Shown piece by piece: positions 40,157-56,153 of a stretch of 64,000 nt of DNA; position 1 is the stretch's first letter, and every line of letters begins with the position of its first letter. The stretch comes from Sminthopsis crassicaudata (Eukaryota). The stretch covers positions 213,497,198 through 213,561,197 of the forward strand of contig NC_133622.1 in NCBI RefSeq assembly GCF_048593235.1, in the 5' to 3' direction. Below the pieces are notes generated by a model. That model was not told the origin of the DNA, ran no database searches, and saw nothing but the letters and a program-made list of their open reading frames with translations. A program made the translations under genes and the position numbers.

Positions 40157-40207
40157 CTCTCTTTGTCTTTTTTCTGCAGCTTCTGCAAGTTTTAATCTTT
40201 TTTCTTC
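40157..40207 (-). CDS. SVIP: SVIP exon 2 (EEKRLKLAEAAEKRQRE), containing the VCP-interacting motif
   Basis: atttttcacag| acceptor, |gtaaga donor, 51 nt. The VIM consensus R-x5-AA-x2-R is intact (RLKLAEAAEKR). Confidence 0.96.
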
Positions 40208-44569: not shown

Positions 44570-45420
44570 ATGAAACTTCGGGGGCCGTCCCTCAGCTGCC
44601 CCCAGCTACGGGCCCGGCTGACTGCCCCCACCCGGCCGGGCGCGCACAGAGCCGCGGGCGGGGGAGGGGCGCCTCACACAAGCCCCATTGTTCAGGCCCC
44701 TACGCGTGCGGCCCCCGCCCCGGCCCCGCCCTGCACGTGGAAGGCTCCAGCAGCCCTAGCTTTCCGCCGCCCCCACCTCAAGCCCGGGCGGTTGGGACCC
44801 CAATCGGCCCCGGAGGGAACCCGAGGGAGGAAGGGAGGGCCAAGCGGGGCCCCGAGAAGTCGGCAGGCCGTGGCGAAGAACGCAGCCGGCCGCCGCGAGG
44901 GCCACCTGTCGCTCCTGGGCGAAGTGGGGGAGCCCGAACAGGGCGGGGCGAGGGTCTGCAGGGGAGGGGCGAGGCCCCACTTACCACGTCTGGCGGGTCC
45001 TGGGGCCCATCTCCCAGGCAGGGCAGGCACAGCCCCATGTCCACTCCGTGTGGCACCAGCCCCAGCCGCCCTCCGCTAAGAAAGCTGGGGGGTGGGGTGG
45101 CCCCGCCCAAGCCGGCGTGCTCCAGCCCCGCCCCCCACGCCTGCCCCGCCCCGCCCCTCCCTGTGGGGTTCAGCTGGGCCGCGTTCTCACCTGCCCGGAG
45201 GGAAGGTGCTGAGACTGGCCCTACCCGGGCTAAGAGTAACCTCGTGGAGCTGGAGGGGATAGTGGAGCCAGCCAATTACCGTCCCCCCCACACTTCCCAG
45301 ATAAAGAACTGGGCACAGGGAGGTGAAGTCAGCCGGAAGTGTCCCAGGAGAGGCAGCGCCCGTTAGAAAAAAGTAGAATCCGAAGGACCCAAGGGAGCTT
45401 TAGGGCGAGGCCATCGAACC
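44570..45420. promoter_or_regulatory. SVIP: CpG island / SVIP promoter with GC boxes and an ETS (GABPA-type) motif CCGGAAGT at 45333-45340
   Basis: Abrupt rise in GC and CpG density in an otherwise CpG-poor window; multiple CCGCCC boxes at about 45100-45155; surrounds SVIP exon 1. Confidence 0.9.
44985..45038 (-). CDS. SVIP: SVIP (small VCP/p97-interacting protein) exon 1 coding part (MGLCLPCLGDGPQDPPDV)
   Basis: ATG at 45038, donor GTG|gtaagt. The MGLCxPC N-terminus (Gly2 myristoylation, Cys4/Cys7) matches SVIP. The four exons total 54+51+111+15 = 231 nt (76 aa plus stop). The GAS2-SVIP tail-to-tail order matches human synteny. Confidence 0.96.
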
Positions 45421-48119: not shown

Positions 48120-48480
48120 AATGAGCAAGCAAACATTTATTAAGCATATATATGCCAGGCACTGTGCTAAGTATTGGGGATACAAATACAAGTCAGAAGA
48201 CAGTCTCTGCCCTCAAGGGGTTTATATTCCAATAGAAAAAGACAATATATAAAGAAGATCTATAAGGGAGTGGGGAGAAGGGCAATACCCAGGCTGTGTG
48301 GTTTGGAGATGGCCAGGACATGATGTGGAAGCTTGGTTCTGGCTAAGATAAGAAAAATGCTAACTGATGATCAGAGCCTGGCACCCAGGAGGCAGAGTTC
48401 AAGGTTCCTGTGGGATGGAGATAAAGATGATGGCTAGTCAAAGTAAAGTGACATGTTTTAGGAATGTCTGGGAAGTGATA
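48120..48480 (-). mobile_element. L2 3' end fragment
   Basis: aacatttattaagca...tgccaggcactgtgctaag...ggggatacaaa, the antisense L2 terminus. Confidence 0.6.
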
Positions 48481-48568
48481 AGGGACAGAGTGGGCAATAA
48501 AAAAAAAAATAGTCCAAGTGTATGACACTTGGACTATTTTTTTTTTTATTGCCCACTCTGTCCCTTAT
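48478..48568. repeat. Perfect inverted repeat: 43-bp arms plus a closing T-A pair, 3-nt loop
   Basis: ATAAGGGACAGAGTGGGCAAT(A)11TAGTCCAAGTG-TATGA-CACTTGGACTA(T)11ATTGCCCACTCTGTCCCTTAT, checked base by base. Confidence 0.97.
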
Positions 48569-48719
48569 ATACTTCATTGTCAAGTTCTCAAAGGAATTTA
48601 GAACTGAGTCTTCAGTTTACCTTTCCTTAATCTCCTCCAAGGTCACATAAGTATTAAGGAGCTAAAATTTCAATTCACATCCCCTGCTTCTCACTGCTGT
48701 TTTCTTGTTACTACATCCC

Positions 48720-49797
48720 TCTGGCTCTGCCAAGTCACCTCGGGTCTTTCATTGCTCACATATACAGACTTGGGACTCTTTCAAGAGATACTGCTTTTTC
48801 ACTGAAGAAACAGGCAGGACTACCTAACTCTATTTCAACTTAAATGGGCAAATCCTGATAGAATTATGTCTTATAAAGACATAGGAGGCAGAATGCCAAT
48901 AATTTAGGAAAAGATCCATTCCCATGATCTTTCAAGCATCCCAACTGCAGGATATAACCATATAATACTGTTTGATGTTTGATTCAGTGTTATTCTGGCT
49001 CTGTGAAAACAGACATGGAGCCAGAATGGATTGTCAACCAGCCTCAGCCTGTCAGAGACCTGTGGGTATTTATTAGCTAATATCAATAATGCCTCATTGG
49101 CTGTAATTGTGTCAAATAAGACAAAGCCTTCATATACAGGTGATCTGGCAAACCTCTGGGAAAGCAGATAAAGGAGATGTCTTTCACATCTTTTATGCCA
49201 AGCAAGTTGCCAATCACTTAACAAGCAGGGGTTGTTAGTAAAGCACAGTAAGATGAAGAATGGAAGGAACATCATTAGAATAGATTAGTGTGATCAACTG
49301 GTAGCATCTGAACCTTCTTTAAAGATGGAAAGAGATTATTTGGTTGTACTCTATTACATTTATAGATGTGTAGCCACAATACTTTTTATTGGTGTTTTGT
49401 CAATTTAATCCAGGAAGTCTGTACAAGATCAGCAAACTGACCTCTTATTCTTGGCCAATTTGTTTTTTCAACCTGTCTGTGTTTTTATAACACATTCCAG
49501 TATTCTCTATAACCTGAACTTCCCAATTAGAGGTTGTGGCTGCTATGGTTATCTCCCTTTGACTCAAGAGGTCATGATCTCAAACACATTTCAATATACC
49601 ATAATCCTTTATTAGACCTTGAGACCTTGGTTTGGTGGAATGGCATTATTGGGTGCTAATTCTCATGGCCTTTCTTTCCATCCTGTGATCAATCATTACT
49701 GCTCTATGCAGCAGAAAGGGAGGATTACCCAAATAGTTTCCCCCCCCAAAGAGATCCACGTGCAAATGGTGTTTTACATTATTCTGTCCAACACTGA

Positions 49798-49828
<31 letters not shown>

Positions 49829-52200
49829 GTATATAGGTACAGCCCACTCTGAGAGTAGATATCTGAGCCTGGAGAGCAATCATCTGAGCTTGGATGTATA
49901 TATGCATCCTGCACCTGCTAGTGGCAAATTAGTTGAAATAATTCTGGCTAAGATATAAAGCTAACAAAGCTTATGATTGATAGAAAGGCCTATGAGGGTG
50001 GTTGATCAACTGAGCATCCAAATGGAGTTTGCATGCCAGCACTACCAACCATCAGATACAGTGATTTGAAATGTAGGTCAAACTAAAATTGAACCTATTG
50101 AGAAAATGCTCAGCTGATGGGCTGGAGATTATGCTGTCAGGCAGGGTGCAGATGTTCTAACCCTCTTTTATCCAATATCCTATTCAAATCCACAAATGCC
50201 TGCTAATTGTCTTCTCTATACAGGCAATTTATTAAATAGCGATAGTAAGATTTTTTTTTATTCAAATGTACCTTTAATAGTAATTGGCATTTATATATCA
50301 ATTTAAAAGTTCCAAACTTAATCCTATGATGTGGTTTCTAAAGATATTATGCACAATTTTATATATAAAGACACTATATCAGTGACCATATGTTTGATAA
50401 CTATCAAAGGTAAAATCTGAATCCAATTCTTCCTGAATCTGAGTCTAGCCCTTTAGTCATCATTTCTTTTCCTCAGATTCCAGTGCCCTTTTGACATGGC
50501 TCACCTTCTGAAGGAAGCGTATTCAGGATTAACAGAGGTTAAACTCTTGGGAAAAAATAACCCTCATGGAACCAATAGATATTTTGGTCTCCAATATGAA
50601 CTGTTTTTGAAGTGTGTATTCTGATAGGGGCTTAAATACATTGGTTCTCCAGGTATTAAATAAGAACTTTGTCTCTGGTGCTAAGCTGAACCATGAATAT
50701 ACACTTAAGCCTGAAACTATTTCCATTTGTGCATATAGAGATAGAGACAGAGATAGTGGTACTAGATTGTTATCTGTCTTTGTAGAGGTGTTTTAAAGAT
50801 ACCTAGAAAAAATAAGGCCAGGTTCTAACAGTCATATTTTTTTGGAAAATAAAGGCTGTCTGCACAAGAATATTCAGATAATTAAACCCATACATATTAG
50901 GGTCAGGGTTGTTCAATCAAAGTCATCAGTCATTGAACAGGCATTTATCAAAGGCTTTACTAACATTTTCCAAGTAATTGTTAAACCTCCATTCTTGTAG
51001 AATGTAAACAACCTTAATTTATTAAAAGAAACCCCTATTTATAAATTTATTATTCTGTGATTTATAGAAAGTAGAAAATTAGCTTTCTAGTATTAAGCTC
51101 CAACCTCTTCTCAACTAGAAACAGACCCAAGCCAAAAGATCTTAAATAGTAAGATTTGTTACTTCACTAATAGAAGGCAACCAAGCCCCAAATTTGAATG
51201 AAGTCCAAATTACAGACCAACCCAGAATCAGAAGAGTTTTGTGAACAGTGAATAGACCTTTCCCCACTAAACAGTGTTACCAATGTGCCTTTGACTGAAG
51301 ATTCATTGACCAATGAAAAATGTAGTCATTCCCACTATCAGGTTGCAGATAATAGGATGCTGGATTTAGAGCCAGAAACTTCAACATATTGCCAGAGAAG
51401 AACCTTGAAGAAAATAGCATTAAAAGGTGTTACCAGGGAAACCTAAGAAAAAATTAAAATAGGTTGTTCGTGTGGAAAGGATGAAATGACAATTACATCG
51501 CCAGGGTGCCCCACTGGCATCCTCACAACATCATAACAAGAAAAATGGCCCTTAGTGTGTTGGGTGGGGCCTCCCTGTTTTAAACTTATGGGAGGAAGTA
51601 AATAGATAAGATGAATCTATTTGAGTATAAATGATAAGAGAGTCTGATGATACTTAGGCTATAAGTCTTTTAAGATTATGTCCCTGCCATAAAGCATGAT
51701 GGTATACTACCTCCAAGTTATTGTCTTATTGCTCTTACGACAAAGTTTGCTATAGAAAAGAATCCTAGGATACAAAAAATGTATAGGATTAATCTCAGAG
51801 TGGTGTTACAACCCAATTTCCCTTCAAGCTCTTGTTAGTGATTATTGTTATGAAAGGACTCCTGATTTGATGTGCATGACAGTTCTCATGTTTTAAAGTT
51901 TTAACCATTTTGGTTGAATTATATATAGAACCTTAGTCCTTATAATGATAGAATATAGCCATTCATCATTGCTAGATAATAACAGTTGAGGGCCAATTTC
52001 TTGGAAACTGATAACTTTAGGGATACTCCACAATTGCCTTGCCTTAGGATGCTGATACTTTGAGTCACGATTTTATTGGTGTGGGCATTTTCTCCACCAA
52101 TATAGAGTTACTATGGCTGACAAGCTGGCTTGCCTTTGAACTGGAGACCTCTTTAAATTTGAGCTGATATTGTTGGTAAAATTGTGGATTGATTCAACCA
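48720..52200 (-). mobile_element. Fossil Ty3/Gypsy (sushi-like) LTR retrotransposon pol region, heavily decayed
   Basis: Manual translation shows motifs in RT, RNase H, integrase order: NLDFIQIW (51189-51212; cf. YLDDILIF), D*TTLT (50901-50918; cf. DWPTPT), KQFILETKISIGSMRVIFSQ (50547-50606; cf. KQFILETDASDYAxGAxLSQ), HFLNRFNFSLTY (50073-50108; cf. LFFSRFNFTLTY), NWPRIRGQFADLVQTS (about 49413-49460; cf. YWPxMRxDVxDYVxTC), and VSDR...PFW...GMLER in ORF 48904-49275. Confidence 0.7.
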
Positions 52201-53895: not shown

Positions 53896-54057
53896 TATGC
53901 CTATAAGGGCCCTTCAGGGCCCCTTATCTCATATACACATATAGCTCTACAGGGTGGGCCCCTCATTCAGGGGCCTTTCACAAAGTTCAAGAATAGGACA
54001 AGCTGGCAAGTGTGAAAGTAATGCCCCATTTAATAATTTCTACCTACACTTGGAGTC
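53896..54057. repeat. Direct repeat, copy 1 (162 bp)
   Basis: Manual alignment with 55993-56153 gives about 10 substitutions and 1 indel (about 93% identity). Confidence 0.95.
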
Positions 54058-55992: not shown

Positions 55993-56153
55993 TATGCCTA
56001 TAAGGGCTTTGAAGGGCCCCTTATCTCATATACACATATAGCTCTTAAGGGTGGGCCCCTCATTCAGGGGCCTTTCACAAAGTTCATGAATATGACAAGC
56101 TGGCAAGTGTGAAATTATGCTCCATTTAATAATTTCTACCTACACTTGGAGTC
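55993..56153. repeat. Direct repeat, copy 2 (161 bp)
   Basis: See copy 1. Confidence 0.95.

What the first reader, a model, noticed from the sequence alone, without database searches (positions are those of the whole stretch)
48720..52200. Fossil sushi-like Ty3/Gypsy retrotransposon pol (RT, RNase H, integrase) upstream of SVIP
This is the strongest hidden signal. Motif remnants are collinear on the - strand in Gypsy order. RT: AHW*HCLVGKGL (cf. GHYEYLVMPFGL), NLDFIQIW, GLFLVEKRLELN (cf. QLFVKAEKCEFH), D*TTLT. RNase H: KQFILETKISIGSMRVIFSQ, FLQKVSHVKR (cf. FFSRKLSPAER), HFLNRFNFSLTY. Integrase: NWPRIRGQFADLVQTS, TITANEALLIL, VSDR...NPFW...GMLER, GFAHLS, KSP. RFNFxLTY is characteristic of the sushi/chromovirus clade, the family that gave rise to PEG10 and RTL1 (established). 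Stops, lost catalytic Asp residues and MIR insertions (about 49300-49370 and 50400-50460) indicate a very old dead copy, not a domesticated gene. Gypsy relics this complete are uncommon in mammals. The reference motifs are from memory, so the family assignment is inference.
Basis: partly seen in the sequence, partly recalled or inferred. Interest (0 to 1): 0.7.

Follow-up and report, generated by a model that had tools for sequence, protein, structure and literature searches.

The report
Dead PEG10-related jumping-gene relic near SVIP

Summary
Partly confirmed. BLAST, Pfam and phmmer find nothing here. A frameshift-aware profile of 52 vertebrate-type Gypsy polyproteins finds one clear relic at about 50,700-50,000 (- strand): the RT connection region plus RNase H, split by a SINE-like insertion. 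It scores 24 bits against nulls near -2 (0 of 200 shuffles, 0 of 319 genomic controls), and each half passes alone.

RT is at null. Integrase is borderline (11-21 of 300 shuffles reach it). Gag, protease, chromodomain and LTRs are not detectable.

The relic matches sushi-like references, not ERV, NYNRIN-like or pararetrovirus-like sequences. In a tree it groups with two better-preserved relics and with a relic behind PEG10. It has stops and frameshifts, and the core sits at the same place, SINE included, in two other species at about 93% identity.

It is one of several such relics in this genome, so it is not exceptional. Verdict: a real, very old, dead retrotransposon fragment of a known kind. 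The claim of a near-complete pol is unproven. Side find: one sister relic keeps a chromodomain trace.

The parts
50488..50700 (-). RT connection region and first half of RNase H (relic, with stops and frame changes)
   Evidence: 6.9 bits, 0 of 300 shuffles; posterior and blocks
50226..50460 (.).
   Evidence: multi-copy matches in the own genome; spanned by single contigs of organisms B and C
49998..50172 (-). second half of RNase H and start of the linker to integrase
   Evidence: 13.5 bits, 0 of 300 shuffles; posterior near 1
   Evidence: at null; 1 of 40 in-band cells above the 95th percentile
48700..49800 (-). possible integrase remnants; borderline
   Evidence: 21 and 11 of 300 shuffles reach the score; 8 of 42 in-band cells
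49800..49828 (-). poly(A) run of 29 bases inside the presumed RNase H-integrase linker
   Evidence: read directly
44985..45038 (-). context: likely SVIP first coding exon in a GC-rich island
   Evidence: translation, GC 0.57; identity recalled, no Pfam hit for this piece
40157..40207 (-). context: likely SVIP second coding exon
   Evidence: Pfam PF15811 E=0.029, below the family cut-off

Best explanation
The stretch at about 50,700-50,000 is a broken remnant of the RNase H region of a Ty3/Gypsy retrotransposon, likely of the sushi-like lineage that also gave PEG10, and it likely does nothing today. Inferred history: an element inserted upstream of SVIP, probably around or before the marsupial-placental split; it lost coding capacity, received a SINE inside RNase H, and has drifted since. 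Shown: the homology of this core, its breaks, the insertion, and orthologous cores in two other species. Inferred: clade, age and neutrality. Open: whether the flanks are RT (my odds about 45%) and integrase (about 55%).
For: Forward score 24 bits, 0 of 200 shuffles and 0 of 319 genomic controls. An independent Viterbi version gave 30.4, 0 of 120 and 0 of 168. Only the 2 tiles that hold the core pass 1 bit among 63 tiles on two strands. Single-reference test: 105 of 116 Gypsy proteins score 0.7-11.8 bits, above their null maxima; 0 of 18 ERV-like loci, 0 of 13 pararetrovirus-like loci, and neither the NYNRIN-like locus nor the L005 relic exceed 0. Tree: window + L089 + L090 + PEG10 relic at 89.5/83, while the equally decayed L035 goes with the non-sushi group at 96.9/95. 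6 stops and 4 frame changes in 119 placed columns. Best-fit decay is 0.6, the same as the relic behind PEG10. Contigs of B and C span the core and the SINE at about 7% substitutions, with non-triplet indels.
Against: No standard tool detects it. The scoring model and its gap settings are mine; 9 settings were tried, and the first gave only 25.0 against 22.9 in controls. The references were gathered by walking out from PEG10, so other vertebrate Gypsy clades are represented by one decayed relic only. Tree rows were fitted to the same profile, the branches are long, and one outgroup (L047) is misplaced. DNA similarity to the sister relics is slight (3.2 and 0.3 bits). 9 of 12 differences to organism B inside the core fall on third codon positions (P=0.004, post hoc), which neutral drift does not predict.
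Confidence: 0.78

Rival explanations
1. The relic comes from another Gypsy lineage (Barthez/Gmr1, MamGyp-int type) or from an old retrovirus, and only looks sushi-like because of the references used.
For: The reference set is biased toward relatives of PEG10. Mean identity to the references is only 26%. Intact ERV pol also scores on this profile.
Against: ERV-like, NYNRIN-like, pararetrovirus-like loci and L005 score at null as single references. L035 separates from the window in the tree.
Confidence: 0.1
2. The relic has been co-opted, for example as a regulatory element of SVIP or part of an upstream non-coding transcript, and is under constraint.
For: It lies about 5 kb from a GC-rich promoter island. 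The C-half has 7 differences in 175 bases against 12.9 expected (P=0.056), and 9 of 12 differences are at third positions. Old Gypsy fossils can be exapted (PMC9004415, passages).
Against: Divergence across the stretch is a flat 7-8% in most contigs. The N-half shows no deficit (5 against 5.8). Stops, frame changes and a shared SINE exclude selection on the protein.
Confidence: 0.08
3. The match is chance in AT-rich DNA.
For: All off-the-shelf searches are blank. This reading may hold for the RT and integrase motifs.
Against: The core lies 20 or more bits above the best of 519 controls. Two halves pass separately and in the right order.
Confidence: 0.02

Closest known systems
Degraded marsupial RTL1 remnant (Edwards et al. 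2008, PMC2408620; passages read)
   Same: Sushi-ichi-type pol relic in a marsupial, heavily degraded, read as an insertion older than the therian split that gained no function.
   Different: Different locus, and no known domesticated counterpart in placental mammals. A later study did not find the RTL1 homology convincing (PMC11011659; passages).
PEG10 / SIRH12 and the 'degenerated' sushi gag hits in wallaby (Ono et al. 2011, PMC3158469; passages)
   Same: Same inferred lineage; groups with the relic behind PEG10. Decayed copies were already listed for a marsupial.
   Different: Those are gag-based and in part intact genes; this is pol-only with no open frame and no gag signal.
MamGyp-int, X1-X4_LR and other mammalian Gypsy traces (Kojima 2018, PMC5753468; passages); Gypsy protein fossils (Frith 2022, PMC9004415; passages)
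   Same: Low-copy, ancient Gypsy internal-region relics in mammals, found by frameshift-aware search.
   Different: Membership could not be tested (no Dfam or Repbase here). Frith's oldest fossils are strongly conserved, whereas this one shows no clear conservation.
Fish and amphibian chromodomain-bearing Gypsy polyproteins
   Same: Best-scoring living references for the core.
   Different: They are intact and carry gag, protease, RT, integrase and chromodomain; none of these is shown for this copy.

Membership tests
Ty3/Gypsy (Metaviridae) pol | Gypsy-type RNase H directly after the RT connection region | tested here: met
Ty3/Gypsy (Metaviridae) pol | Domain order protease-RT-RNase H-integrase | tested here: inconclusive
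   RT and protease at null, integrase borderline; power is limited
Ty3/Gypsy (Metaviridae) pol | gag upstream of pol | tested here: inconclusive
   gag/protease at null, 35 of 200 shuffles; a multi-copy repeat starts at about 52,150
Ty3/Gypsy (Metaviridae) pol | Flanking LTRs and target-site duplication | tested here: inconclusive
   no flanking direct repeat among those listed for 40,000-64,000; expected to be lost at this decay
Chromovirus, sushi-like vertebrate clade | pol sequence groups with vertebrate chromovirus references | tested here: met
   with reference bias and long-branch caveats
Chromovirus, sushi-like vertebrate clade | Chromodomain after integrase | tested here: inconclusive
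   not detected in this copy (86 and 24 of 300 shuffles); detected in sister relic L090 (15.1 bits, 0 of 300)
Endogenous retrovirus pol | Closer to ERV connection/RNase H region than to Gypsy | tested here: not met
   0 of 18 ERV-like loci above 0 bits
Domesticated SIRH/RTL gene | Preserved open reading frame | tested here: not met
   6 stops, 4 frame changes, SINE insertion
Domesticated SIRH/RTL gene | Transcription | tested here: inconclusive
   no RNA holder on record; one guessed-RNA run is uninformative
MamGyp-int / X_LR repeats | DNA match to the Repbase/Dfam consensus | not testable with these tools
   no repeat library on hand

The most novel reading that the evidence does not exclude
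The window copy is the oldest layer of an uncatalogued family of chromodomain-bearing, PEG10-related retrotransposons that was active from the time PEG10 inserted (decay about 0.6) and kept inserting well into the marsupial lineage (sister relics at 0.2-0.4, one with a chromodomain trace). Together with the RNase H relic still lying behind PEG10, these copies would be a fossil record of the element that PEG10, RTL1 and SIRH12 came from, and would date its extinction.
Probability: 0.35. Interest if true: 0.45.

Novelty: new member of a known kind. Interest (0 to 1): 0.22.

Why it matters
On its own it matters little: it is one more dead retrotransposon fragment. Its value is as a marker. It shows that pol relics of the PEG10 lineage survive below the reach of BLAST and Pfam. 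With the sister relics it bears on whether the sushi-derived genes came from long-dead remains (Kokosar and Kordis 2013, PMC3670739; passages) or from a family still moving in marsupials (Ono et al. 2011).

Tried and rejected
Blank searches: Pfam, homolog search (12), PDB (14), tblastn and hmmsearch. The 1.84-billion-protein phmmer search was also blank, but it was run on the frame that lacks the RNase H motifs, so it says nothing about the core. Ungapped dot-plot (31): no excess of hits in the region. Loose-gap alignments (26, 27) chain through RT, integrase and beyond, but reversed controls and the GC-rich island score as high, so those chains are rejected as evidence. DNA pair-HMM against sister relics for RT and integrase (52): at or near null; a few off-target pairs also reached 0 of 40, which shows the noise level. 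Pfam SH3_Tf2-1 in the genome (39): 2 sub-threshold hits, not followed. Pfam SVIP genome search (54): missed the locus. L005 query in viral contigs (43): nothing. Expression: no RNA holder listed. The guessed-RNA run X7 holds 0.48 of the words while its contigs amount to about half the genome's size, which fits low-coverage DNA as well, so it is no evidence either way. Organism D's contigs do not cover the RNase H core, which proves nothing. Second MIR at 49,300-49,370: no match found. Earlier-findings look-ups: nothing that bears on this. Literature: no report of this locus in searches; subscription papers, repeat libraries and supplements were not seen and may list it. One search timed out after its first parameter set; one search was a script error, rerun.

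Full report
Setting. The window is G000:C6:213,497,198-213,561,197 in a 3.24-Gb, 8-contig genome. That it is a marsupial is my inference from genome size, contig number and a PEG10 gene. Exon-like pieces on the - strand read like SVIP; one hits Pfam SVIP weakly (E=0.029) and the rest is recalled. The likely start codon is at 45,038, so the relic core lies about 5 kb upstream on the same strand.

Observation. Pfam: 0 of 6 frames and no retroelement family in 21 fragments. Homolog search: none among 7,993 candidates. PDB: 0. tblastn and hmmsearch: nothing significant. I therefore collected references by walking from the genome's own PEG10 to a Xenopus Gypsy protein and its 120 best relatives, mostly fish and amphibian where named. 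From 52 of them, picked for carrying integrase and chromodomain regions, I built a profile and scored DNA against it with a model that allows neutral decay, stops, frameshifts and long insertions.

The core is real. The connection plus RNase H region scores 24.0 bits; 200 local shuffles peak at 0.9 and 319 genomic controls at 2.6 (23.5 bits at a second decay setting). A Viterbi version agrees (30.4; 0 of 120 and 0 of 168). Posterior mass is confined to about 50,700-50,000, with a gap at about 50,460-50,230. That gap is a multi-copy SINE-like repeat. The halves on either side pass separately (6.9 and 13.5 bits, 0 of 300 each) and swapped-order controls do not. In a whole-window scan only the two tiles holding the core exceed 1 bit. 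In the block alignment the first catalytic-type Asp of RNase H is replaced and a later one is kept (catalytic roles recalled).

RT and integrase are not shown. RT is at null in local, anchored and narrowed tests (156 and 169 of 200; 119 and 157 of 300); one in-band grid cell of 40 reached 2.6 bits. Integrase gives 79 and 36 of 200, 21 and 11 of 300, and 8 of 42 in-band cells against 14 of 245 off-band (overlapping cells). So the integrase blank says little, and the RT blank argues mildly against a complete RT. Gag, protease and chromodomain are at null. No flanking LTR pair is listed.

Family. Scored one reference at a time, 105 of 116 Gypsy proteins reach 0.7-11.8 bits, above their null maxima. 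One viral-contig Gypsy-like locus reaches 2.5. All 37 other loci stay below 0: 18 ERV-like, 13 pararetrovirus-like, 4 other viral contigs, a NYNRIN-like gene and relic L005. The ERV, pararetrovirus and NYNRIN labels are my reading, not a tool's, and references under 15 bits on the sub-profile or under 120 residues were dropped first. In a 34-row tree (19 of 52 references used) the window groups with L089, L090 and the relic behind PEG10 (89.5/83) among the vertebrate references. The equally long-branched L035 joins the ERV/NYNRIN side (96.9/95). Caveats: rows were fitted to the same profile, one outgroup is misplaced, and other vertebrate Gypsy clades are nearly absent from the references. Sushi-like is therefore likely, not proven.

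It is dead and old. The placed columns hold 6 stops and 4 frame changes. Of three other organisms laid, B and C cover the core and its SINE with one contig each (135 substitutions in 1,827 bases; 125 in 1,758), with indels of non-triplet length. C and D cover the downstream part (7-11%); D does not cover the core. Best-fit decay is 0.6, against 0.3 (L089), 0.4 (L090), 0.3 (L091) and 0.6 for the relic behind PEG10. These are relative figures, sensitive to base composition. The match to PEG10's relic suggests a similar age; PEG10 is put at 160 My or more (PMC11011659; passages). One oddity: 9 of 12 differences to B inside the core lie at third codon positions (P=0.004) and the C-half has 7 against 12.9 expected (P=0.056). 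This is post hoc, from a cut table, and cannot reflect selection on a protein that a shared SINE interrupts. I read it as chance but keep a small exaptation rival.

It is not alone. No second copy shows at DNA level, but profile searches found other relics. L089 has RNase H 101 bits and integrase 27. L090 has RNase H 80 and a chromodomain trace of 15 bits. L091 has RT 152. Four gag relics score 9-37 bits, the RNase H relic behind PEG10 scores 44, and the non-sushi L035 scores 43. Each was 0 of 100 shuffles, and the chromodomain 0 of 300. Pfam confirms RNase H in L089 and L090. These two match each other at DNA level. The genome searches score only top candidates, so this list is a floor.

Comparison with what is known. 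Decayed sushi-type sequence in marsupials is in print: the RTL1 remnant (PMC2408620; doubted in PMC11011659), three 'degenerated' gag hits in wallaby (PMC3158469) and remnants of a second Gypsy lineage (PMC3789554). Mammalian Gypsy traces are catalogued (PMC5753468; PMC9004415, lists 83 pre-amniote Gypsy fossils in human). PMC3670739 holds that no chromovirus is active in any mammal and that the domesticated genes came from remains. PMC4408412 and PMC9447858 added only context. I saw term-matched passages of all nine papers, with no full texts and no supplements. Searches found no report of this locus.

Verdict. A real, ancient, dead RNase H-centred relic, likely of the PEG10 lineage. New member of a known kind; interest 0.22.

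Noticed in passing
window 48,478-48,568: Perfect 44-base inverted repeat with a 3-base loop. Organism D lacks the left arm, so it is a recent inverted duplication in this lineage or an assembly artefact.
   Followed up: partly
L090 = G000:C3:118,090,000-118,099,999 (- strand): Sushi-like relic with RNase H (Pfam E=1e-8) and a chromodomain trace (15.1 bits, 0 of 300; no Pfam chromo hit).
   Followed up: partly
L089 = G000:C1:475,945,000-475,954,999 (+); L091 = G000:C1:302,515,500-302,525,499 (-): Better-preserved pol relics: RNase H plus integrase start (L089) and RT (L091), decay about 0.3.
   Followed up: partly
L030:2,825-6,600 (G000:C5, behind PEG10): After the PEG10 ORF2 stop, a decayed RNase H relic (43.8 bits, 0 of 100 composition-matched shuffles) and faint RT and integrase traces (3 bits each); no Pfam hit.
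   Followed up: partly
L031-L034 (G000:C4:23.39 Mb, C1:580.03 Mb, C4:172.28 Mb, C1:489.23 Mb): Four sushi-like gag relics; one may be SIRH12 (not checked).
   Followed up: partly
L035 = G000:C2:533,094,000-533,103,999: RT plus RNase H relic of a different Gypsy lineage.
   Followed up: partly
window 53,896-54,057 and 55,993-56,153: Direct repeat of about 160 bases, about 93% alike, 2.1 kb apart; origin unexplained, no Gypsy signal between the copies.
   Followed up: no
window 49,166-49,262: Organisms C and D carry about 124 other letters where the window has about 90, a lineage-specific replacement.
   Followed up: no
G000:C3:337.28-338.46 Mb: Ten near-identical ERV-like pol matches, in runs spaced about 32-40 kb, suggesting an array of duplicated segments.
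   Followed up: no
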